Assembly: GCA_951406725.2 (NCBI GenBank)
Contig: OX597819.1
Location: forward strand, 55,924,001-55,988,000
Direction: 5' to 3'
From: Octopus vulgaris
Lineage: Eukaryota
DNA length: 64,000 nt
A program made the position numbers and the translations under genes. Positions 1,145-64,000 of this stretch are shown in pieces (the stretch's first letter is position 1; every line of letters begins with the position of its first letter). Under the pieces are notes generated by a model, which worked only from the letters and a program-made list of their open reading frames with translations, was not told where the DNA came from and ran no database searches.

Positions 1145-1596
1145 TTGTCCTTCCAACATCGCTTGACGACCGATGCGGGTGTTTTTAGTCCCCGTAACTT
1201 AGCGGTTCGGCAAAAGAGACCGATAGAATAAGTATTAGGCTTACAAAGAATAAGTCCTGGGGTGCTCCAGCATGGCCACAGTCAAATGACACACACACAT
1301 ACACACATAAATATGCATGTACGTATGTCTGTATCCGTCTCTTCTTTCCGTATCACTCTCTCTCTCTCTCTGTCTATAAAACTATCTATTATTGGATTGA
1401 TTTGAAAGAAAGGCCTGTAATCATGGTTTCAGGGGCCTCTCCTCTACCATGAAATTGGTGCCGTCAACTTATCTCATGAATTGCTACAAGAAATTACGGA
1501 GATGTACTTGCATAGCAAGTGATTTGATCTGAGATCGTGTGCTGAAACGAAAACAATTGCAGCGTGGAAGGTGTTTGTAAGCCATTTAAGAAACAC

Positions 1597-1814
1597 ACAA
1601 AAGCCGTTCGATTCACTTCAACATTTAAGTTTAATTTGTCAAAATATTTTCGTCGCTTTAAGACCGCGACCTGTTCACTGACAAAAAACCCGTGCTGCAT
1701 CACAATAGGTGATGCAGCACGGATTTTTGTCAGTGAACAGGTTGCGGTCTTAAAGCGATGAAAATATTTTGACAAATTAAACTTAAATGTTGAAGTGAAT
1801 CGAACGGCTTTTGT
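1597..1814. repeat. Near-perfect palindrome (about 107-bp arms, 5-nt loop)
   Basis: ACAAAAGCCGTTCG...GCATCAC aatag GTGATGC...CGAACGGCTTTTGT. The left arm belongs to a repeat starting near 1494 that recurs near 55312-55470. Confidence 0.92.
1635..1685 (-). ncRNA. Minimal hammerhead-like motif, G3-C8 variant (inverted copy at 1726-1776; partial copy near 55418-55457)
   Basis: Minus strand: TTTGTCA GTGAACA G GTCGC GGTCTTAAA GCGAC GAA AATATT T TGACAAA; 7-bp stem I, 5-bp stem II, palindromic stem III. Confidence 0.58.
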
Positions 1815-4199
1815 TACAAGAAAACATACGCAAAAAGGGAATTCCGGAGGACTGATGCCATGCGCGGTGACAGAACTGGACATAGCCGAGAGTGTTTAAA
1901 TGGAAACTGGCATGAGAGCAGTCAGTTAGCTTCGAGGAGGGAGCAGAGACTGCAGAAATGGTGTTATAATATGCAGCGAGAGGAGATAGTAGATCTATGG
2001 ACCTTTGGTTGTAGTGTGTTTATGTGGGTTATTCTACTCATTTGTGTGGCCTCTCTATGGATGTGATCTAGGGATATCTGTGGATGTAGTAGCAGCATCG
2101 TCATCTTTGATATAAGAACAGCACTCCACTGTGGATATCACCTGAAGTTTGCAGAGGACTAGTAGTTGTTGAGCATCTAAAATATGTTCCTGGATCTGAA
2201 CAGCAAGGCTAGTCTTTGCTTTGTTCAGGATACGTTCACTAGCATGTGCGTTCACTACAACGCGTGTTCACTACGATGTGCGTTCACCAGGATGTGTATT
2301 TGCCAGCATGTGTATTCATCAGGATTTGCGTTCACCATTTTCAGTGATGACAAAGTAAAGCAATTAAACCTATTGTGAGGACCTTATATGTGTGATGTTC
2401 ATCTAAAAATGCGATTGTGACGTGCAGTAATGTTTCTTGTGAGTATTGGTTGTTTCTTTTCAAATGATGAAAGAGTCAAGATTTGTATGACTCCACTAGA
2501 AAATGTTTCGAGGTTTCTGCTTATGGAGGAGTCTGTACAGATTTCACGTGGGGTGTGTAAATTACATATGGAAGACACTTTGGTGAAGATTAGTGAGGAA
2601 TAGAGAGTGGTATAAGTTTTGTAAGGGTTAAGAGTGTGCGTTGTTAGAGGTTACTATGTGCAGGATGCTGATGTATGAGTATTGAAGGTGAACGGACCCT
2701 TGGATTCATCAGTGTCAGTAGAGTATGGAGACCTTCTTCAGACACTAAGCTAGGAAGTTACCGGTCCAATAGCCGACAGACGGGAGCTTATAGCTTGGTA
2801 ATTCATCTTGCAGGTTTTTGTTCTCAACACAATTGAAACCTTTGCTGATGTCGAGGGCAACAATACTGCTTTCAAACAATTTCTCAAAGGTGAGAGCCCG
2901 CTGGTACATTAAATGGAAAAGTAGATCTTCAGTCGCTATGGCTTTACGTGAACCTTAGTGGTGGTCATTAAGGAGGAAGAAAAATTCAAAGTGTTGGAGA
3001 ACATTGTTGTTAATGGCTGTATCCATGACTTTTAAAATGCTAGAAGTGAGTGCGATAGGACGGTAGTTGACTTGGTCAGTGGAATTACAGTTCTTGAGAA
3101 TGGGACAGACTGTAGCATGTTTTTAAAGGTCAGAATATATTCTTGCAGAAAAGAAAGATTGAATAATTTAATGAGGATAAAATTTAGCTTTGTGGCACAT
3201 GATGGATAAGTGGAAGAAGGAGAATTTTCGAATATTCTTTGATATTCTTTTGTCACGGATAGGTCGCACCTTTAGTTTGGGGTTGTCAAAGTAGATATTT
3301 GCCTTTAACTCGCAGAGAGGCCGCACTATAATCTGGGGAGTTACAATGACCTCTTTATAACGTAAATATAAATATTTACTCGTTTACTCTTTTACTTGTT
3401 TCAGTCATTTGACTGCGTCGGCCATGCTGGAGCACCGCCCAGCATAATATATATATTATATATATTAGGCAGTGATGAGGGAGAAACACAAAACACACGC
3501 AGACTTAACATATACATATATATACGATTGATTTCTTTCAGTTTCTGTCTTCAAAATCCACTGATAAGGCTTTGGTTGGTCTGAGGCTATAGCAAAAGAC
3601 ACGTGCCAAGTTACCACACAGTGGGACTGAACCCAGGACCATGTGTTTTGGAACGAAGTTTGTTACCACACAGCCACACCAGCACCTATGTATGTGTGTG
3701 TGTATGGGTGTATATATGTATGCATGTATATATGTGAATATATATGTGTACATATTACAAGTACATCTATATATATATACATCTACACGTATACATGTAT
3801 ACATATACATCTATATGTATAGAAATAAATGTATGCATATAAAGCTATACACACACACACACATACATAGGTGCAGGTGTGGCTGTGTGGTAACAAACTT
3901 CGTTCCAAAACACATGGTCCTGTGTTTAAATTTAAATTTACAATAATAAGGGTGAGAAATTGAATATTAATATGATTCGATTAATATGATTAATATGAAT
4001 CGAAAACCAGTGGTGTAGCATATAAGACCATAGCGGATCTTCTAGCAAAATGGATGTCCACTGTTAATAGTTCATCTCTCTTATATAATAGTTTAACTTT
4101 AATAGTTTCAGTATTAAAGTGAAAGTATCTGACATTACAATAGAGAGATGTTTTTGTATCACTTTTAACACGTAATACTGAAATAGTGGAGAAGATATG

Positions 4200-5366: not shown

Positions 5367-5557
5367 GCTTGTTAGAAAGTCTAATACAAAGGAAAGAGTG
5401 GCAAACCTGGTTATTTGATATAAAAGTTTGCTTCTCAACCGCTTAGTTCCATGTTTGATGTAAATATGCGTTAACTTGGGCAAGTGTCTTTCGCTATAGG
5501 TTCGGATGGACCAATCCATTGTGAATGAAATCCGTTTGACCAAAACTACATGGGTGC

Positions 5558-6519: not shown

Positions 6520-9500
6520 GTGTGTAAGTGTGTGAGTGTGTTTGTGTCAGTGTGTTTTCATGCATGCATTTATATATCTACATAATTTCATTACTGAATT
6601 TGTTTTGTAAGAATGTTAAAGTGAAACGGAAATATATGTACCTCGGTGAGTCATTTTGCCGACACACACACATACAGAGTTTGTCAATCTTACAATTAAC
6701 TAATCGATTTTTTAAGGCCATTAATAATTTCCACTGCAATCTATGGGTGCGAATCATGGTAATCAAAATGCTGAAAAGTAAGGAAAAAAATCTCCGATTT
6801 AGAAATGAAATGTTATAGGATTCATATTATCCTGTCTAACTGAATTAATAATAGTGTTGTGAAGAAACTATTGGAAGGCTGCTAACAAAAAATATCCCTG
6901 CCAAATGTCATACAAATTTAGACACTTCGAGAGAGCATAAAATAATTTTTCCTTTGGAACGGTTCAACTCCAAGCAGCGTCTACTATAAAACAGTTGCAT
7001 GTAAACATTGGATCGATTAAGTTGAAAGCTGCACGTGAGACACGAACTCTTGCCTTCTGTAAACATGACAACGGTTCTGCCATTGGCCCATAGCAAATCT
7101 TCGCATTTCCCTATCCAGTTTAGAAACTTTATTCTTACCAGCTAAAATTGTATGTTGCTGACATCATAAGAATTTAGAAACTTCGAGAGAACATGAAATA
7201 ATTCCTTTTTTTTGGAACGGTTTTACTCGAAGCAGATAAAGTTATGAATAATAGTGAGTAAAAATTATGTTAGAAATACTTTGGATTAAAGAAACCGGCA
7301 GTAGTCGACCTTTCCTATTCAAAGTTATTTTACGCCCAATATTCACACGCTATTATTTATAGCACTATCTTATTTCTTTATTGCTCACAAGGGGCTAAAC
7401 ATAGGGGGGACAAACAACGACAGACAAAGGGATTAAGTCGATTATATCGACCCCAGTGAGTAACTGGTTCTTAATTTATCGACCCCGAAAGGATGAAAGG
7501 CAAAGTCGATCTCGGCGGAATTTGAACTCAAAACGTATCGGCAGACGAAATACCTATTTCTCTACTACCCACAAGGGGCTAAACACAAAGAGGACAAAAC
7601 AAGGACAGACAAATGGATTAAGTCGATTATATCGACCCCAGTGCGTAACTGGTACTTATTTAATCGACCCTGAAAAGATGAAAGGCAAAGTCGACCTTGT
7701 CGGAATTTGAACTCAGAACGTAACGGCAGCCGAAATACCGCTAAGCATTTCGCCCGGCGTGTTAATGTTTCTGTCAGGTCGCTGTTTTATAGCTATATCT
7801 GCTTCGAGATCCACTGCTGCTGCTGCAAAAAAAAAAAAAAAAGAAAAAAAGAAAAAAAGGATCACTTCTGTTAGATTTATTTAGTAGTGGCCATATAATT
7901 GGTTTGATCATATAACACTTCACCAAGACACACACTCTCTCTGATGGATTAGTGAAGAGGTGCGGGTACAACACCGAACTTCAGGATACTGATCGTTCGG
8001 AATCTCTTGTAATCCGCACTAATTTACGAAAAGGAAATTTAATATCCCGCGATCACCAGACTAGTTTACGGGTAGCTTGCACACACTAGTGCCTTTCTAT
8101 TAAAGACACAAGGCTTGAAATTTTGGGGGAGGAGACATATCGATTACATCAACTCCAGTACATGACTAGTACTAAATTTATCGATCTAGAAAGGATGAAA
8201 AGCAAAGTCGACCTCGGCGGAATTTGAACTCAGAACGTAAAGACAGACGAAATGCAGCTAAAAATTTTGCCCGGCGTGCTAACGATTCTTTTCTACTCTA
8301 GGCACAAAGCCCGAAATTTTTGGGGAGGGGACTAGTCGATTATATTGACTCCAGTACGCAAGTGGTACTTAATTTATCGACCCCGAATGGATGAAAAACA
8401 AAGTCGACCTCGCCGGAATTTGAACTCAGAACGTGAAGAGACGGACGAAATGCCGCTAAGCATTTCGCCCGGCGTTCTAACGATTCTGCCAGTTCACCGC
8501 CGTGTATCATTTACTATCATGTGCTAGTACTTTCCATTTCATGGAATTATTTAAGTAAACTTAATATTTGTTTGATTTAAGGCGGCGAGCTGACAGAATC
8601 GTTAGCACGCCTGGGAAAGTTCTTAGCGGCATTTTCTCATCTTAATCGTTAGCACGCCGGGAAAAGTGCTTAGCGGTATTTCGTCTGCAGCTACGTTCTG
8701 AGTTCAAATTCCGCCGAGGTGAACTTTGCCTTTCATCCTTTCGGGATCGATTAAATAAGTACCAGTTACGCACTGGGGTCGATATAATCGACTTAATCTG
8801 TTTGTCTGTCCTTGTTTGTCCTCTCTGTGTTTAGCCCCTTGTGGGTAGTAGAGAAATAGGTATTTCGTCTGCCGTTACGTTTTGAGTTCAAATTCCACCG
8901 TTAATCTGTTTGTCTGTCCTTGTTTGTCCTCTCTGTGTTTAGCCCCTTGTGGGTAGTAAAGAAATAGATAATTCATTCAAATTTACATTCTGAGTTCAAA
9001 TTCCGCCGAGATTTAGTTTGCCTTTCATACTTTCGAAGTCGATAAATCAAATACCAGTAAGTCGATGTAATCGACTTACTCATCTCACCAACCTGCTGGC
9101 CTCGTGCCTAAATGTTAAATCAATGTTTGTTTAATTTAGAGTGTGTTGACCAAAAGTGACATGGACGGTTTTGGTGAAATTAGAAAAGGCTTTTGAACCA
9201 GAAGTTTTGGAAAAATCGATGCTGTATGTGTATGGGAATATCACAAAATGAACGATTGTGTAATGCCAAAGGATGAGCGGAGAAATATGATGGTGGATAA
9301 GATAGCGGGAGAAGATTGTGTCACTTGTTGTGCATATAAGGACGCTTTTTGTTACACTAAGGATTTAGCTAGGATTGAGCTAGGATTGCCATAATATTAG
9401 TTGCAAATCTAAGAATCTTGCTAGCTTATTAAAAAAAAAAAAAGTAACAGCTTCAACGTTATAATTTTGCTCTTGTGCTAAATCTTACATGAGCAAATGT

Positions 9501-21994: not shown

Positions 21995-22533
21995 TCTTGG
22001 TATAAAAGATGGGCTTGTCTTGGTATAAAAATGGGCTACAGCAAATATTCTGCTCAATACCACAGATTTGCTTGTCAGTTGTTTGAACTCAGGAAGGTAA
22101 AAACAGACGAAATAACTATTTCTTTACTGCCCACAAGGGGCTAAACACAGAGAGGACAAACAAGGACAGACAAACGGGTTAAGTCGATTATATCGACCCC
22201 AGTGCGTAACTGGTAGATATTTAATCGACCCCGAAGGGATGAAAGGCAAAGTCTATCTCGGCGGAATTTGAACTCAGAACGTAGCGGCAGACGAAATACC
22301 TATTTCTTTACTAACCCACAAGGAGCTAAACACAGAGAGGACAAACAAGGACAGACAAACGGATTAAGTCGATTACATCAACCCCAGTGCATAACTGGTA
22401 CTTAATTTATCGACCCTGAAAGGATGAAAGGCAAAGTCGACCTCGGCGGAATTTGAACTCAGAACGTAACGCCAGACGAAATACTGCTAAGCATTTCGCC
22501 CGGCGTGCTAACGATTCTGCCAGCTCGCCGCCT

Positions 22534-22576
<43 letters not shown>

Positions 22577-22670
22577 GCTACTACTACTACTAGGGGACTA
22601 GTGAATTAAATCGACCCCAGTGTTTTAATGGTACTTAATAATAATAGTGATAATAATAATATTATAAGTG

Positions 22671-22724
<54 letters not shown>

Positions 22725-22979
22725 GTAATAGTAATAATAATAATAATAGTAATAATAATAATAATAATATATTTTTTTATTGCCCACAGGGACTAAACAT
22801 AGAGGTAACAAACAAGAACAGACAAAAGGTTTAAGTCGATTACATCGTCTTCAGTGCGTAACTTATTTAATCGACCCCGAAAGAATGAAGGGCAAAGTCG
22901 ACTTCGGTGGAATTTGAACTCAGAGCGTAGCGGCAGACCAAGTACAGCTAAGCATTTCGCCCGGCATGCTAACGATTCT

Positions 22980-23735
22980 TGGTCTACGCTTGATCCAGGA
23001 CTGTTGTTCCATCAATGAGACCTCGCCGTTAAGGAAACGCTAGAGATGTCGCAGCCTCTGTGCATGTCCGCGCATCATTAGCCACGGCATGCCCAGTCCT
23101 CCACTCAGCGTTTGTTAACAGCAGATGGACATTCTGACGAGTGGAACATGTCCCTGCCGTAAAAAGTGGAAGAGCAAGTGCTCCAACTTTATCAAGCACG
23201 AAGTGGGGCAAGGGACGACGGTCAGGCGGTAGTAAATGACGGAAGCGATGTGCGCATTCGCCACTCCACCCGACACTCTCTGCCCATCTCTGGGTGAAAT
23301 TAGCTACTCTGCTCGTCACATCCCCACAGTTCTTGTCCATCTGGAGGTTTGGACCAAACAAGACCCCAAACAATTTAACCGGTCCTTCCGTTCAGCGCCC
23401 TTCAACGCTGTCAGCATGGACCGGCCTATCCAGGCTCACCGACTTCTCTTGGCTGATCTTTGCTCTTGTCACCGCTTCGTATTCCCTTAGAGCAGTGCCG
23501 ATCACCTCGATTTCCGAGATGTCTGACACTGTTGCGATGACGTCGTTCTCGAAAGCCGACACGAACCTTCCCTCGAAAGATCCAGTTTCCACAGCAATGA
23601 CTCGAGAGACAGTACGTACAGATGAGGTGAGAGAGGGCATCTTTGACGGACCGACCGAGCGATGCTAAACGATTCCGATAGGTGGCCCATTTACTTTGAC
23701 CACTGAACAGATGTCGCTGAACATTGTAGTGATCC
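22980..23735 (-). mobile_element. Internal ORF2 (reverse transcriptase) fragment of an L1/Tx1-like non-LTR retrotransposon
   Basis: SVRQRCPLSPHLYVLSLESLL (RQGCPLSP motif), VSAFENDV (decayed YADD), YEAVTRAKISQEKS, GVLFGPNLQMDKN; frameshifted and internally deleted. Confidence 0.82.
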
Positions 23736-29516: not shown

Positions 29517-29734
29517 AATTAAAAATGAGGGTCTCTAAAGACACCAACATGCCGAAAATAGCAGTCGAAACACTGACTATAGTACCACGTTAAATGTTCA
29601 TATCGCACCATGAGGTAAAGCGGAGGGACAAAACATACAAGCAAAAATTATTGAATAATTCAAGATCCAAGGATTTCTGGTTCTGCTTTAGATAAGCTTT
29701 ACCGTCATCAATTGAATATATCAATGGTACATAA

Positions 29735-29774
<40 letters not shown>

Positions 29775-30001
29775 GCATATATATATCTGTATTTATGTAC
29801 CCTTGATATATTCAATTGATGACGGTAAAGCTTATCTAAAGCAGAACCAGAAATCCTTGGATCTTGAATTATTCAATAATTTTTGCTTGTATGTTTTGTC
29901 CCTCCGCTTTACCTCATGGTGCGATATGAACATTTAACGTGGTACTATAGTCAGTGTTTCGACTGTATTTTCGGCATGTTGGTGTCTTTAGACACCCTCA
30001 T

Positions 30002-48534: not shown

Positions 48535-49239
48535 TATTTCTTTCGTTATGGAAGCACGTGGGCTTAGTGGTTAAAGTGTTAGACACAAGATCCTAAGATT
48601 GTAGTTTCGAATCCCGGATGGATTTCGACCCTTACTTTTGCGTATCTTTTCGCCTATAGCCAATCAAAAGCTTTCTCGCTGTCTTTCCTTATGTCGTACG
48701 TCTATAGTAAAGGTTTTCCGGTTGCATTCTTCAAAACTTGTTCGATGTTTAGAAAACTAGAACTTTCAGCTACGAAGTTTTGAAGTTTCTGTTACATCGA
48801 CCCCAGTGTTTCACTAGTACATAATTTATCGACCCCGAAAGGATGAAAGGCAAAGTCGACCTCGGCGGAATTTGAACTCAGGAATGTATAGACGGGCGAA
48901 ATGCCGCTAAGTTATTTTGTCTGGCGTGCTAACGATTCTGCCAGCTCAACTCCCTAAGACTAATATAAATAGCGCGAGAAGAAAAAAAAACTTTTCAAAA
49001 TGTTATACAGAATACTACGCTTTCACTATTCTTTATAGAGATATTGGTTTTCAAAGCCAGCAATTTTTTTTGGTGGGTGGGGGTAAAGTCGATTGCATTG
49101 ACCCTAGTGTTCAACTGGTGCTTATTTTATCAATCCCTAAAGGATGAATAACAAAGTTGGTCCCGGCAGAATTTGAACTCAGGACGCACAGTCGGAAAAA
49201 ATGTATCTAAGCAATTTTTCCGGTGCAGTAACGATTCTT

Positions 49240-49980
49240 TTCTTTTTTACTCTAGGCACAAGGCCCAAAATGTTGGGGGAGGGGGCCAGTCTATTAGGTC
49301 GATCCTGTACTCAACTGGTAACTAATTTATCGACCCCGAAAGGATGAAAGGCAAAGTCGACCTCGGCGGAATTTGAACTCAGAACGTAACGGCAGACGAA
49401 ATGCCTATTTCTTTAGTACACACAAGGGGCTAAACACAGAGAGGATGAACAAGGACAGGAAAACGGATTAAGTCGATTATATCGACCCCAGTGCGTAACT
49501 GGTACTTATTTAATCGACCCCGAAAGGATGAAAAGCAAAGTCGACCTCGGCGGAATTTGAACGCAGAGCGGAAAAAACAGACGAAATACCTATTTCTTTA
49601 CTACCCACAAGGGGCTAAACACTGACGGGACAAACAAGGACAGACAAACGGATTAAGTCGATTATATCGACCCCAGTGCGTAACTGGTACTTATTTAATC
49701 GACCCCGAAAGGATGAAAAGCAAAGTCGACCTCGGCGGAATTTGAACGCAGAGCGGAAAAAACAGACGAAATACCTATTTCTTTACTACCCACAAGGGGC
49801 TAAACACTGACGGGACAAACAAGGACAGACAAACGAATTAAGTCGATTATATCGACCCCAGTGCGTAACTGGTACTTATTTAATCGACCCCGAAAAGATG
49901 AAAGGCAATGTCGACCTCGGCAGACGAAATACTGCTAAGCATTTCGCCCGGCGTGCTAACGATTCAGCCAGCTCGCCGCC
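49240..49980 (-). repeat. SINE B concatemer, 185-bp period (one head + 3 B1 bodies + B2 body). Similar arrays at 7370-7775, 8580-8968, 22085-22533, 40200-40612, 51408-51972, 52517-52888
   Basis: CCTATTTC junctions begin at 49404, 49589 and 49774 (spacing 185). Confidence 0.9.
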
Positions 49981-51203: not shown

Positions 51204-54079
51204 CAATATATGTATCTTAATTGATATATTTACATTTACATATTCATGTATATATTCATTTATCCATATACATTGATATAAATTTTCATCTCCAAATACA
51301 TTTGTACACATACATACACACACACACACAATAAAAAATAGACGAATGAGTTATCTGGCATTGCTACAGTTGTTTCACTAGAAGTCTATTGTACTAAAAG
51401 CATAGTCTTTTCTACTCTAGGCACGAGGCCCGAAAGTTTTGGGGGAGGGGGCCATTCGATTAGATCGATTCCAGTACGCAAATGGTACTTAATTTATCGA
51501 CCCCAAAAGATTGAAATGCAAAGTCGACCTCGGCGGAATTTGAACTCTCAACGTAAAGACAGACGAAATACCTGTTTCTTTACTGCCCAAAAGTGGCAAC
51601 ACACAAAGGGGACAAACAAAGATAGACAAACGGATTATCGACCCCAGTGCGTAACTGGTACTTATTTAATCGACCCCGAAAGGATGAAAGGCAAAGTTGA
51701 CCTAGGCGGAATTTGAACTCAGAACCTAGCGGCAGACGAAATACCTATTTCTTTACTACCCACAAGGAGCCAAACACTGACAGGCAAACAAGGACAGACA
51801 AACGGATTAAGTCGATTATATCGTTCCCACTGCATAACTGGTAATTATTTGATCGACCCCGAAAGGATGAAAGGCAAAGTCGACCTCGGCGGAATCTGAA
51901 CTCAGAACGTAACGGCAGATGATATACTGCTAAGCATTTCGCCCGGCGTGCTAACGTTTTTGCCAGCTGGCTGCCCTGTTGATAGAAGCATAATACAATT
52001 GGTTAGATTGCGTAATATGTCGCGTAACTCCCAACGCATCATGCTACCAAATAAAACCAAAAAATATTGTCTTGGTTACTGAACAGATCAACAAGTGAAA
52101 TTTTAAATTAGAATTACCAATAGCTGATAAATATAACTTGGACTTGTCTCGAGGGGTGGATAGCTGAATATGGTTGTAAATATAAGGAATAAATATAAGG
52201 AGTTAAAGGTGTTAATAACCTAAAGGTGTTAATAAGCCTAGTGACCTCGTCTCCAAAGGGCAATAGTGGCAGAACATTCTTGAATACAGCAGATATTAGA
52301 TGCCAAGTAAAACATTTGACCGTATCAAATGCAGTTGCCGACGTTGCTCTAAAAACCTTTTATTGTACTATATTACAGTCAGCCTTCATTTTTCATTCAC
52401 TCGACTAAACTTGATAAAAGTCTTCCGAATTAATAGAACATTAGCATAATCTAATGGAGATTCAGCCAACCATAAATCCGAGAGAATCTAACCAATTCTG
52501 TTATGTTTATGTCACAAGGCGGCGAGCTGGCAGAAACGTTAGCACGCCAGGCGAAATGCGTAGCCGTATTTCGGCTGCCGCTACGTTTTGAGTTCAAATT
52601 CCGTCGAGGTCGACTTTGCATTTCATCATTTCGGGGTCGATAAATTAAGTACCAGTTACGCACTGGGTCGATGTAATCGACTTAATCCGTTTGTCTGTCT
52701 TTGTTTGTCCCCTCTGTGTTTAGCCCCTTGTGGGTAGTAAAGAAATAGGTATTTCGTCTGCCGCTCCGTTCTGAGTTCAAATTCCGCCGAGGTTGACTTT
52801 GCCATTCATCCTTTCGAGGTCGTTAGGGATCGAAATAATCGACTGGCTCCCCACTCAAAATTTCCGGCCTTTTGCCTATAGTAGAAAGGATCGTGCTTAT
52901 TACACAGTAAATACACCGAATGAAATAATTGTAGCAATACTAACTAATCCATTCGTCTGTTTTATTGTTTTTACGCTACGCTCAAGTTTCCATTCATGGT
53001 TGGATAATTCTGGATACTTTTGGGTACGACTGTATTTGTGGATTGTGGAACAATAGTGAACTTCCCTCTTCGATGTACGTTGTGCTAAGATAATGGATTA
53101 GTTAAGTCTTATTTGCTTTATTCTGTCGAGCCGATTTGAGGCGTGCTTCACTTTGATATGCCTTAATCTTTTATGGATATCCTTTAATCTAGACTATGTG
53201 TGTGCGTGTGTGTATATATTTATGAGCACACACATTTGTCGCGAGAAATAACGGTAAACATTTGATGTAGTACCGATCATATTTTCTTTTAGGTGATTCA
53301 TCGAAATACTTATCTATTTAATTTCTCACAAGAGATCAGTGTCATAAACCCCAGTTTATGTATAATATTCCATAATTAGGTATTGAAGTCTTATGTGAGT
53401 TCTACTTCGATGAAAATGAATTAAGATATCATTTGTGTCGGTCATGTTAATCTCTGTGTAAGAAAGTTAATGTCCTTAAGAATCTCATTAAATCTTGTTG
53501 TGATTGTCCCTAAGATTCTCGTTAAACAATTTACGAGGTATTCACGAAGTTAATTTTAACGCGGTTGATATAACACCAACCGTTTCGGTGCGTCTGACAA
53601 GTCGGTTCAGTTTGTATTTATTCCAATGTGTTGTATGCTAACAGGCCAGAGCAAAGTACATTCTTTAGACTTCTTGGTGAAGTGGAATAAAATAGATCAA
53701 ATTTTATCCCCGTGAGAGAGAACTATAAATCTTTGTCTTACTGATGTGGGTAATTTAATAAAGATATTTCTTTTCCATTATTTTTTTCGGGACAAGAGAC
53801 TAATGCTACAACCCCAAAGTATGTATGATTATTAATAATTATTTGTTGAGATTAGGTGTAAGTTATACTTTAAGATGACTTGGGAGGTAATTGTCGAGTT
53901 TACGCAGGTTCTATTACATCACACAAAACAAAGGCACACATACAAATGCACAAAATTTATGTATATGTATTCGTGTACATACAAATGGATCTCTCTCTCT
54001 TTCTTTTCCCTATGAACCAAAAGGGAAAAAAAACGAAGGGAAAAAGAGAGCCACTTACGTAATATGTTTTCTTTTTGCA

Positions 54080-54781: not shown

Positions 54782-55542
54782 ATGCATATTTACATTTGAA
54801 TGTTATATAATGTCATGCTTTTGTCGAATGAGACAAAATTAGTATGTTATTTCGGTATATCGTGTCAGTGAAATATTTTCCTTTTTTGTTTTTTTAAAGT
54901 TCTTCGGCTGATATGCCGCGACTCTTACATTACAATGCATTTCAAGAAATTATCATTTATTGGTCATACGGACTTGAATAAGCTTATAACACACTTCAAA
55001 ATATCCTTCATATTTGCATATTTCTATCATTAAAAAAGCAATCATACGCACGGAATTTAAAATTAGAAAGTGTTAATTTGAAATTTAAGGTTCACAATTT
55101 TAATCTTCATGTTGTACTCTAAAAAACATCATAAAACACATGAATAAATTTCAATATTGAATGACTTGGAAGAATATGATTGCGCAGCCATTTATGGGTT
55201 TGAATAAACAATCAGAATGCGTGTAAAACGGAAGTTAAAGATACGACTCGCAGCACTGTGTAGTCCAGGGACAGACCCAGTTTTATATTTATGAAAATAG
55301 ATTTTTTTTTATTACGGAGATGTACTTGCATAGCATGTGGCCTGACCTGAGATCGTGTGCTGGAACGAAAACAATTGCAGCGTGGAAGGTGTTTATAAGC
55401 CATTTAAGAAACACAAAATTTTCGTCGCTTTGAGACCGCGACCTGTTCACTCACAAAATTCCGCGCTGCAGCTCGTTAAATTTAAACCGAATACGTATGT
55501 ATGTATGTATGTATGTATGTATGTATGTATGTATGTCATTTT

Positions 55543-61942: not shown

Positions 61943-63213
61943 ACATGTTAACACGCATGCAGCCGCAAAGATAATTGATAAATGTATATCTGTCGTCTAT
62001 GCTAGGATGATAAATGTACTAATTTCAAACGTATTTATTAAAGGGTGACCATCCCCAGAGACAGAGTGAGAAAAAAAATTAATAAAAACGAAATTAGTTT
62101 GAACTTACAATAGAAAGAACGCAATGTTGGCTCACAGACAGAATAGTTTCCACAGTGCTTACTACGTATTTGTAGTCGATTATTATTGTCCATCCAAGTA
62201 GATAATCGTGTTGTGGACTCTTTTAATGTGGAACGATTGGTGCATAAAATCACATGCAGCTCTTTATTGGAAATAAATTAGTTTCGAATTGATTGATATG
62301 TCAGTTGACGATTCCCGTAGGTTAAATTTTTATTATTTTTAACCAGTTAATCGAAAATAAACAGAAACTAATCTAGATTGAATTCTAGTGCAAAACTGTT
62401 AACTCCCTAACGACTCAGTTTATAATCTAATCTGATACTGTATTCAACGAAATACCTTCCTGCGCTTGTTATATCAGGTCAGGTCAAACGACCGCCTTCA
62501 TCTTTGACCTAAATTAGTGAAAACAATTCGGCTTTGTCTTCGATTTACTATCGTAATTTACTCAGGTATTTGCTTCGATCTACTTTAGTACATACACACA
62601 GCTTATTAAGAATTTCATGATTTTAATTTAAACTAATCATCCCAAAATGGTTACTTAGTTCCAGGCCTGCCCTAATCAAGTTTCATTTTAAATATAGGCA
62701 TTCAGGCCTTGATGTTCTTGTCTTTGCTTAAACCTATTTTTGTTAAAATACTCTGCCTTGACTTCAACTAATTTAGAAAATCATGGAAAATCTAATAAAA
62801 TTTCCGTTATTAAGCTGTTGTTTTAAACAAATCAGAATGAAATTTTGAGGGAAGGTTTGAATTTAGATAATTTTAAAACAGAAAATTTGTATTATAGATA
62901 CAGGGTAGTTCCATGTGGATTTGAATAGTAAGAGTTAACGAGTAATGTACCCAAGATTACATTATCTTAGAAACACAAAGCTCCTGTATTTAAGATTGTA
63001 GGATGCGTACTTCGTACTTTGGGTCTTATCACTTGATGTTCACAACTGTTTGGATTTTAATTCTTATTGTTTTTGATTGCATTTTCCTAACTCAGCATTT
63101 TACTTGCTCTGTAATTACTTCATTCTATATGTTCATTTGATCTAATTAGCATTGCATTTATTAATTTCTTTGTGTACCTTATTGTATATATATATTTCTC
63201 TTTATTTTTTTAG

Positions 63214-64000
63214 ATTTGCTGCCTGCTACTTCCTCTGTCCACTACACCAATTTAAAGCGAATGATCCACCAGTCAGTGTTTCAATTGTCTTAAAGAAGAA
63301 ATGCCAGCAACCTAGAAATCACATTTTGGTTACACCAAATTCTGTAGTTAGAAAAACAGGCAAGAAAAACTTTACTGTTTGCCTCAGTCCTTTGCACTCC
63401 AACTATGACCGTATGGACGAATTGGTCGAATGGATGGAAGTCAACAAGTTATTTGGTGCCGATTATTTCATCTTCTACAACTACAGTATCAGTCGCAATG
63501 TAACTGCAATTATAAAGAAATACGCAGAAGAAGGTTTGTCAGAGACAGTTGAATGGAAAATACCATTTAAAAGTGAAGGTGGATCAGAGATTCATTATTT
63601 TGGTCAGCTCGCTGCTATAAATGACTGTCTTTATAGAAATATGTACAGGACTAAATTTATCGTGTTTATTGATGCAGATGAATTCATAATTCCGAGAAAG
63701 CATCGGAATTGGATGACTTTCATTGATAGTTTGAAACACGCCACAAATATAGGCGCATATATTTTCAGGTGTACTTTTTTTCGTAAAGAATGGGAAGATG
63801 CGAAAGAAAATTTCACCGGGAAAGACCTAGCTGAAAAATATAACATAGTGTCTTTGTTGAAACTAGATCGAGAGCCGAAAATACATCCTGCGTATATTCG
63901 TTCAAAAACTATTGTTAATCCTTTGAAAGTCGAAACAGTGGGAATTCATAATATTTGGACTTTTCGGACTGGGTATGTTGCTTCCGAAGTCGGAATTTCA
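63214..64000 (+). CDS. Exon of a glycosyltransferase family 92 (DUF23) protein, beta-1,4-galactosyltransferase galt-1-like; continues past the window end
   Basis: Polypyrimidine tract + TAG acceptor (63211-63213), then an open frame from 63215 to 64000: FAACYFLCP...FTVCLSPLH...LVEWMEVNKLFGADYFIFY...EIHYFGQLAAINDCLYRNMYRTKFIVFIDADEFIIP...RSKTIVNP...VGIHNIW. GQxxAxNDC, DxDE, RSKxIV and xGIH are GT92 hallmarks. Absent from the ORF track because there is no stop codon in the window. Confidence 0.92.

What the first reader, a model, noticed from the sequence alone, without database searches (positions are those of the whole stretch)
1597..1814. Palindrome carrying a G3-C8 'flipped-core' hammerhead on both strands
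Seen: both arms encode TTTGTCA-GUGAACA-G-stem II-GAA-AAUAUU-U-UGACAAA. The two stem II differences between arms convert G-C pairs to G.U and keep the stem. A third copy near 55418-55457 retains GUGAACAG, so the flip is a family trait. Established: swapping C3-G8 to G3-C8 is a compensatory change that partly restores hammerhead activity. Inference: a natural G3-C8 ribozyme family. Caveat: the predicted UUU triplet is a poor cleavage site, and stem I could be read in another register.
Basis: partly seen in the sequence, partly recalled or inferred. Interest (0 to 1): 0.75.

Follow-up and report, generated by a model that had tools for sequence, protein, structure and literature searches.

The report
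Flipped-core hammerhead in Penelope retroelement
This palindrome is a head-to-head insertion of two tail ends of a jumping gene with over ten thousand copies in this animal genome; its self-cutting 'hammerhead' RNA motif has its key base pair flipped throughout the family and likely still cuts slowly, which has not been tested.

Summary
The sequence is as described, but the palindrome is not a device. It is one head-to-head insertion of a Penelope-like element (PLE): window 1494-1814, between 9-bp target duplications. The ~208-nt unit has at least 10,178 copies. It is 198/208 identical to the 3' end of an RT + GIY-YIG element found here. GUGAACA (G3-C8) is the family consensus (6,174 of 6,542). 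It persists in an older subfamily with different stems and a compensatory stem I pair, while sister PLE families keep C3/U3-G8. So the flip is a real paired change in a hammerhead. Cleavage is untested. Most retrotransposed copies are uncut, and a young sister family fixed A9C. I found no natural G3-C8 core in the papers I could read; two key papers were not held. The scan noted this family before on other DNA of this genome. Verdict: new variant of a known kind, interest 0.45.

The parts
1485..1493 (+). Left target-site duplication TACAAGAAA
   Evidence: Same 9-mer at 1815-1823
1494..1703 (-). Left arm: full ~208-nt PLE 3'-terminal unit ending at the long ('tail') end
   Evidence: At least 10,178 genomic copies; 198 identities, 6 mismatches, 4 gap columns against the 3' end of the RT/GIY-YIG element L398
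1635..1685 (-). Minimal type I hammerhead motif, consensus copy: stem I 1679-1685/1635-1641, G3 1678, C8 1673, A9 1672, extra G 1671, stem II 1666-1670/1652-1656, GAA 1649-1651, palindromic stem III AAUAUU 1643-1648, U17 1642; predicted cut between 1642 and 1641
   Evidence: Sequence, descriptor, pair probabilities; cut site inferred from hammerhead numbering
1495..1553 (-). PLE 'tail' of about 58 nt between the two preferred 3' ends (unit positions ~150 and ~208)
   Evidence: 3' ends cluster at 147-153 and 208; 35 of 53 identical without gaps to the tail of sister autonomous PLE L345
1704..1708 (.). 5-nt spacer joining the two 5' ends head to head
1709..1814 (+). Right arm: same unit, ending at unit position ~106
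1726..1776 (+). Second hammerhead motif (G3 1733, C8 1738, U17 1769) with two CpG-decay changes at 1743 and 1759
1815..1823 (+). Right target-site duplication TACAAGAAA
55313..55470 (-). Third family copy; keeps GTGAACAG but lacks stem III, N17 and the stem I 3' strand (46-nt deletion)

Best explanation
The palindrome is a head-to-head insertion of two 3'-end fragments of a Penelope-like retrotransposon whose minimal hammerhead motif carries a family-fixed G3-C8 pair, and this motif likely still works as a slow ribozyme that would need a dimer or the element's protein to cut. Shown: the unit lies about 1.1 kb behind an RT + GIY-YIG reading frame; it has target duplications, AT-rich/(TA)n targets and two preferred 3' ends; sister families have the canonical pair. 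Inferred for the insertion: the element's enzyme cuts both target strands with a 9-nt stagger, each 3' end primes reverse transcription on element RNA (usually one at the far start site, one at the near), and the two cDNAs are joined 5' end to 5' end. Inferred for the RNA: two copies pair through the self-complementary AAUAUU to form stem III, G3-C8 replaces C3-G8 as the core's tertiary pair, and cleavage falls after U17. It is slow or late, because most inserted copies come from uncut RNA.
For: Family consensus: 6,174 exact GTGAACA of 6,542 matches to a pattern allowing C/G at 3 and 8 and any base at 7. In 75 loci sampled by a downstream motif, G3 stood in 81 of 84 and C8 in 88 of 90 arms. 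No other letter reached 5% at the core in contigs of 4 of 4 laid runs, from four organism labels. Parent: 574 copies carry a shared 5' extension; 5 of 30 fetched have PLE ORF sequence upstream in the sense direction; L398 has a 530-aa open frame with GIY-YIG over the Pfam cut-off (23.1 vs 22.6 bits) and 52.6% identity over 523 aa to sister PLE L345. Canonical sisters found without using the core: 14 of 16 loci keep the motif, with C3 in 11, U3 in 3, G8 in 14, G3-C8 in 0; the young sister D has C3-G8 in 32 of 32. Older subfamily B (28 copies, median 21% from consensus) keeps G3-C8 while N7, stem II length and stem III differ (AAUU vs AAUAUU, both palindromes), and one stem I pair is G-C in the B consensus and U-A in A. 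16 of 16 motif positions not fixed by the search pattern match between the consensuses, against 104 of 135 downstream (p about 0.015). In deep mutagenesis the G:C swap was the only rescue in this region (PMC9901934); the double mutant partly restores a PLE hammerhead that cleaves only with its protein (PMC11167929). 45 of 75 loci are head-to-head; 41 of 45 (36 of 40 after merging six copies of one insertion, p 2e-7) pair a long with a short end; arms share subfamily alleles at 272 of 312 sites vs 52% in shuffles.
Against: No cleavage data. Of 111 arms, 50 start at unit positions 1-7 and 1 starts at the predicted cut, and that one is explained by junction microhomology. The youngest autonomous sister family has A9 changed to C in 30 of 32 copies, so this clade can spread with a damaged core. 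One older sister group often has U3.G8 (9 of 22). The extra base is G, against a PLE consensus of H (1 of 56 rows has G). The minimum-energy fold pairs G3 with U17 and extends stem I into the core. The double hammerhead (-27.0 kcal/mol) is less stable than the cofold optimum (-32.0) or two monomers (-29.0). Inserted copies decay neutrally (core 2.07% vs 2.23% elsewhere). B's stem I covariation holds at consensus level only: 6 of 21 parsed copies show G-C, with 7 of 28 rows dropped for indels. The tree separates A+B from the sisters only weakly (69/86, 3 B rows misplaced). No full-length parent or intermediate core was found.
Confidence: 0.55

Rival explanations
1. Same element, but the motif is kept as a fold (a binding or packaging signal for the PLE protein) and no longer cuts at a useful rate.
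For: Retrotransposed copies are uncut. A9C is fixed in the young sister family. Hammerhead mutants did not affect insertion in vitro and no RNA ends were seen at the cut site for the anole PLE (PMC11167929). Naiads spread without a canonical hammerhead (PMC8557442).
Against: The 3-8 pair is a tertiary contact of the active fold; keeping it through two transversions, with G12, A13, A14, A15.1 and U16.1 intact across A, B and sisters only 46-77% alike downstream, points to the catalytic geometry.
Confidence: 0.3
2. The hammerhead died in the ancestor of A and B; the flip is a chance double change carried along by a successful master copy.
For: Copy number reflects the master's activity, not the ribozyme. 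Other core changes occur in the clade. No intermediate subfamily was seen among 39 loci with both positions changed.
Against: Of about 15 core positions only 3 and 8 differ from the canonical sisters, and they differ complementarily (roughly 1 in 165 if two core changes fell at random; my estimate). 16 of 16 unselected motif positions are kept between A and B.
Confidence: 0.1
3. The palindrome itself is the functional unit, with a ribozyme on each strand.
For: The arms are 97% complementary and both hold the whole motif.
Against: Head-to-head pairs are 45 of 75 loci, with varied junctions and often a motif cut short. Inverted 5'-truncated copies are typical of PLEs (PMC8557442). One transcript holds one sense and one antisense motif that pair into a ~105-bp hairpin. 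The arms decay independently (private changes shared at 18 of 276 sites).
Confidence: 0.03
4. A MITE or SINE with a chance hammerhead look-alike.
For: Short unit with a sharp 5' boundary; no Rfam hammerhead match.
Against: Linked to an RT/GIY-YIG frame; homologous to canonical-core sisters, also outside the motif (9.6 bits vs a shuffle maximum of 1.6 in 300; score 58.5 vs a maximum of 53.5 in 1000 shuffles). Rfam also misses the canonical sisters L111 and L345.
Confidence: 0.02

Closest known systems
Minimal type I hammerheads of metazoan Penelope-like elements (Cervera and de la Pena 2014, PMC4209133; read main text parts 1-2 of 4 and supplement file 2 parts 1-2 of 3)
   Same: Position in the element's 3' repeat, extra base between A9 and G10.1, G10.1-C11.1, short palindromic stem III, frequent U17, many solo or opposite-strand copies.
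   Different: G3-C8. The 56 rows of Fig. S3 hold 53 C3-G8, 2 U3-A8, 1 U3.G8 and no G3-C8 (their descriptor favoured the canonical core). The extra base is G; stem I is 7 bp rather than 4-5.
Poseidon element of the green anole, PAc (Frangieh et al. 2024, PMC11167929; read parts 1-2 of 4)
   Same: Two 3' ends that define a tail, AT-rich targets, uncut RNA as the main template; there the protein cleaves and extends both strands, and the C3G/G8C double mutant is partly active.
   Different: There G3-C8 is a laboratory mutant, here it is the natural consensus. The parent here has a cysteine-rich linker before the endonuclease (Neptune/Nematis type per PMC8557442) and a tail of about 58 nt.
Natural U3-A8 core variants (Perreault et al. 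2011, PMC3088659, section on core variation; also an active PLE family in this genome)
   Same: Compensatory change at the 3-8 pair.
   Different: U3-A8 needs two transitions and keeps pyrimidine at 3; G3-C8 needs two transversions and reverses the pair.
Non-LTR retrozymes (bioRxiv 10.64898/2026.07.22.740005, read part 1 of 5)
   Same: Short PLE-derived units with type I hammerheads.
   Different: Retrozymes are tandem arrays; in 75 loci here 1 had same-strand pieces, 29 were solo and 45 head-to-head.

Membership tests
Penelope-like element (EN+) | [quoted passage not shown] | tested here: met
   L398: 530-aa frame with YVDD and GIY-YIG (Pfam 23.1 bits over cut-off 22.6), about 1.1 kb upstream of the motif. 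Pfam RT match seen only in sister L345 (E 0.0024). N-terminus not found.
Penelope-like element (EN+) | Two 3' ends (tail), tail usually at one end only | tested here: met
   Ends at ~150 and ~208; 41 of 45 pairs long plus short
Penelope-like element (EN+) | Inverted 5'-truncated copies, target duplications, microsatellite or AT-rich targets | tested here: met
Penelope-like element (EN+) | Partial tandem with the repeat on both sides of a full ORF | tested here: inconclusive
   No same-strand upstream motif in the 9 of 11 oriented parent regions that held one motif; all ORF copies seen were 5'-truncated
Minimal type I PLE hammerhead | Three-way layout: stem I, stem II with G10.1-C11.1, palindromic stem III, extra base after A9 | tested here: met
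   kept with changes in subfamily B
Minimal type I PLE hammerhead | Conserved core U4 G5 A6 A9 G12 A13 A14 A15.1 U16.1 and H17 | tested here: met
   Each at 96% or more in 84-103 sampled arms
Minimal type I PLE hammerhead | Canonical CUGANGA (C3-G8) | tested here: not met
   G3-C8 in the consensus; a Watson-Crick 3-8 pair is kept
Minimal type I PLE hammerhead | Self-cleavage after N17 | not testable with these tools
   Only contigs were served, which cannot show RNA ends
Rfam hammerhead families | Covariance-model match | tested here: not met
   No hammerhead among 118 matches at E up to 10 for L001, L265 and the canonical sisters L111, L345; uninformative, since the sisters are missed too
Non-LTR retrozyme | Tandem arrays of hammerhead-bearing units | tested here: not met
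   0 tandem arrays in 75 loci

The most novel reading that the evidence does not exclude
A natural, catalytically active G3-C8 hammerhead that an autonomous retrotransposon lineage reached by crossing a two-transversion fitness valley, kept through two subfamily waves and spread to more than 10,000 copies in several related species; such cores are invisible to CUGANGA searches, so the true core rule is 'any 3-8 pair' and a hidden class of genomic hammerheads exists.
Probability: 0.4. Interest if true: 0.62.

Novelty: new variant of a known kind. Interest (0 to 1): 0.45.

Why it matters
Why PLEs carry hammerheads is open: they cut poorly in vitro and are dispensable for insertion in the one reconstituted system. 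This clade offers a natural comparison in one genome: homologous motifs with C3-G8, U3.G8, G3-C8 and C3-G8 with A9C, two of them on young elements with open frames. If the G3-C8 motif cleaves in a pair-dependent way, catalysis is what is selected and search descriptors need widening. If it does not, the fold is kept for another role. The strict long-plus-short pairing of the arms is also genomic support for priming at two RNA sites by one complex.

Tried and rejected
Rfam gave no hammerhead for the window or for canonical sisters. The active 781-aa PLE family found with GIY-YIG has a U3-A8 hammerhead and no sequence match to the unit, so it is not the parent. A pattern joining a sister upstream motif to the G3-C8 core gave 5 hits and no parent directly, but two of the listed hits showed the shared 5' extension. 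No RNA holder on record was listed; contigs cannot show RNA ends, so say nothing on expression or cleavage. The extension ends in a branch-point-like and acceptor-like sequence just before the common 5' end, but no copy joined to the candidate donor was found in the loci held and no such joint was listed (the repeat between was skipped by the tool). PDB sequence search of the sister ORF found nothing. Folding z-scores of isolated arms were unremarkable. MAFFT misplaced stem III between subfamilies, so no pair-count test was run on it. Literature searches for a natural G3-C8 core returned only laboratory mutants. Lunse et al. 2017 (about 150,000 PLE hammerhead variants, figure recalled) and Przybilski and Hammann 2007 are not held and were not seen; either could bear on novelty. 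Supplement file 1 of PMC4209133 could not be searched.

Full report
Observation. The inverted arms and both motifs are in the sequence. A descriptor allowing any 3-8 pair finds exactly these two sites in the window; 30 shuffled windows give 0.07 hits each and none with 12 or more stem pairs. The left arm extends to 1495, and the whole insert (1494-1814) sits between copies of TACAAGAAA. The two stem II differences are CpG transitions seen in 7 of 90 and 9 of 98 sampled arms; CpG sites change at 7.7% against 2.2% elsewhere. The third copy lacks 46 nt including the cleavage site.

The repeat family. The window lies in a 2.8-Gb animal genome; that it is octopus-like is my inference, not a call result. 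The core 18-mer has 6,174 exact matches, of 6,542 when positions 3, 7 and 8 may vary. A downstream 19-mer has 10,178 matches. I took the first 100 of these, which came to 75 loci after removing overlaps and two duplicates. G3 stood in 81 of 84 arms and C8 in 88 of 90. 45 loci were head-to-head pairs, 29 solo, 1 other. 3' ends cluster at unit positions ~150 and ~208, and 41 of 45 pairs combine one of each; six of these are copies of one insertion, leaving 36 of 40 (p 2e-7). The two arms share subfamily alleles at 272 of 312 sites (52% in shuffles) but few private changes (18 of 276; duplicates not merged). Many copies have duplications of about 8-14 bp in AT-rich or (TA)n targets. The window's right arm ends at position ~106, an uncommon end.

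Relatives with the canonical core. A pattern that excluded G3 and C8 gave 118 matches against 2 in the control. Of the first 30 loci, 6 were doubly mutated copies of this family and 24 belonged to older sister families with the same stem I start, extra G and stem II start. A second, core-independent pattern gave 16 loci; 14 kept the motif, with C3 in 11, U3 in 3 and G8 in all 14. Their upstream DNA held GIY-YIG remnants, which led to a young autonomous sister with frames up to 825 aa. Its motif has C3-G8 in 32 of 32 copies but C at position 9 in 30 of 32, and its tail matches ours at 35 of 53 bases without gaps and ends at the same place.

An older G3-C8 subfamily. Searching G3-C8 in other contexts gave 37 matches and revealed subfamily B (36 matches to its own pattern). 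B copies are a median 21% from their consensus, this family's 4.4%. B keeps G3-C8 with C at 7, a 6-bp stem II, a 4-nt palindrome in stem III and a G-C pair in stem I where this family has U-A. The 16 motif positions that the pattern did not fix are all shared, against 104 of 135 downstream. The tree of downstream sequence nests this family inside B and separates both from the sisters with weak support. Since C3-G8 is the general hammerhead state, the flip is derived (inference).

The parent. 574 copies carry a shared 5' extension. In 5 of 30 fetched, PLE coding sequence lies upstream in the sense direction. L398 holds a 530-aa open frame from the RT through GIY-YIG, 52.6% identical to the sister protein and 97% to a second copy; its 3' end matches the window unit at 198 of 208 with the same core. 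All such copies were 5'-truncated. The short copies mostly begin at one point just after the extension; this may be a transcription start or a splice acceptor, which I could not decide.

How it likely works. Shown: element structure, family relations, fixation of the flip, neutral decay after insertion (core 2.07% vs 2.23%). Inferred from PMC11167929, where a PLE protein cuts and extends both strands and starts at two RNA sites: each cut end primes a cDNA, one at each site, and the cDNAs join head to head. Fold-back of one cDNA would give similar junctions and is not excluded. Inferred from PMC4209133: the motif folds as a dimer through its palindromic stem III. The G:C swap is the one change known to rescue this core (PMC9901934; PMC8495972). 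A G3-C8 variant was reported more active with G17 than with C17 (PMC3884650, passage, data not shown there), so U17 may be a more permissive background than C17 (inference), although G3.U17 still extends stem I in the predicted fold. That a G inserted after A9 lowers activity is recalled, not read.

Against activity. 50 of 111 arms start at the far 5' end and 1 at the predicted cut, so the templates were uncut. The young sister's A9C shows that a core change did not stop spread. The dimer is not the lowest-energy state in a simple model. I put about even odds on measurable pair-dependent cleavage.

Comparison and novelty. It works like, and is placed like, a minimal PLE hammerhead; it fails the canonical CUGANGA test, and cleavage is untested. 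Natural U3-A8 is known (PMC3088659; PMC4209133). Fig. S3 of PMC4209133 has no G3-C8 among 56 rows. Seven searches found G3-C8 only as a laboratory mutant. Two relevant papers were not held. Other papers seen only as passages: PMC8557442, PMC6765202, PMC13282606 (the word hammerhead does not occur). Earlier scan notes describe the same family elsewhere in this genome and similar cores in other genomes; my reading was recorded before that look-up, and the parent was found afterwards by my own calls.

Verdict. Real, family-wide, derived G3-C8 hammerhead variant in an ordinary PLE insertion. New variant of a known kind; interest 0.45.

Noticed in passing
L345:5041-5090 (and 31 further copies in L318-L354): The youngest autonomous sister PLE family has CUGAUGC (A9C) in 30 of 32 copies, with C17 and a compensatory stem I change; two older copies keep A9.
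   Followed up: partly
L091-L099 (e.g. L093:2206-4551, motif near 5437): An apparently active PLE family with a 781-aa RT/GIY-YIG frame and an upstream frame carries a U3-A8 hammerhead and two 3' ends about 33 nt apart.
   Followed up: partly
L398:6340-6375 (574 genomic copies): The parent's sequence just before the common 5' end reads like a branch point, pyrimidine tract and AG acceptor, or an initiator; 12 of 32 short copies have G two bases before the shared start where the parent has C, which could be a cap-derived base.
   Followed up: partly
75 loci on contig C1 (L141-L221): Head-to-head insertions almost always pair one long-ended and one short-ended arm (36 of 40 independent; none long-long).
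   Followed up: yes
L156, L193, L194, L198, L199, L202: One palindromic insertion with its flanks is repeated at least six times over 21 Mb of C1, so it has been copied as part of a larger repeat.
   Followed up: no
window 29562-29965: A 400-bp near-perfect palindrome (97%) around a (TA)n core, unrelated to this family; no hammerhead by my descriptor.
   Followed up: no
window 7372-8950, 22093-22980, 48760-49925, 51430-51980: Clusters of a ~185-nt repeat in tandem and dispersed copies, probably a SINE family (recalled, not tested).
   Followed up: no
window 63146-64000 (+): Open frame of at least 285 aa that looks like a glycosyltransferase family 92 domain (recalled from its motifs, not scanned).
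   Followed up: no
L049 and L050, about 1570-2240 (+): Two neighbouring intronless frames resembling dCMP deaminase, each with a copy of this repeat just upstream; they look like a local duplication.
   Followed up: no
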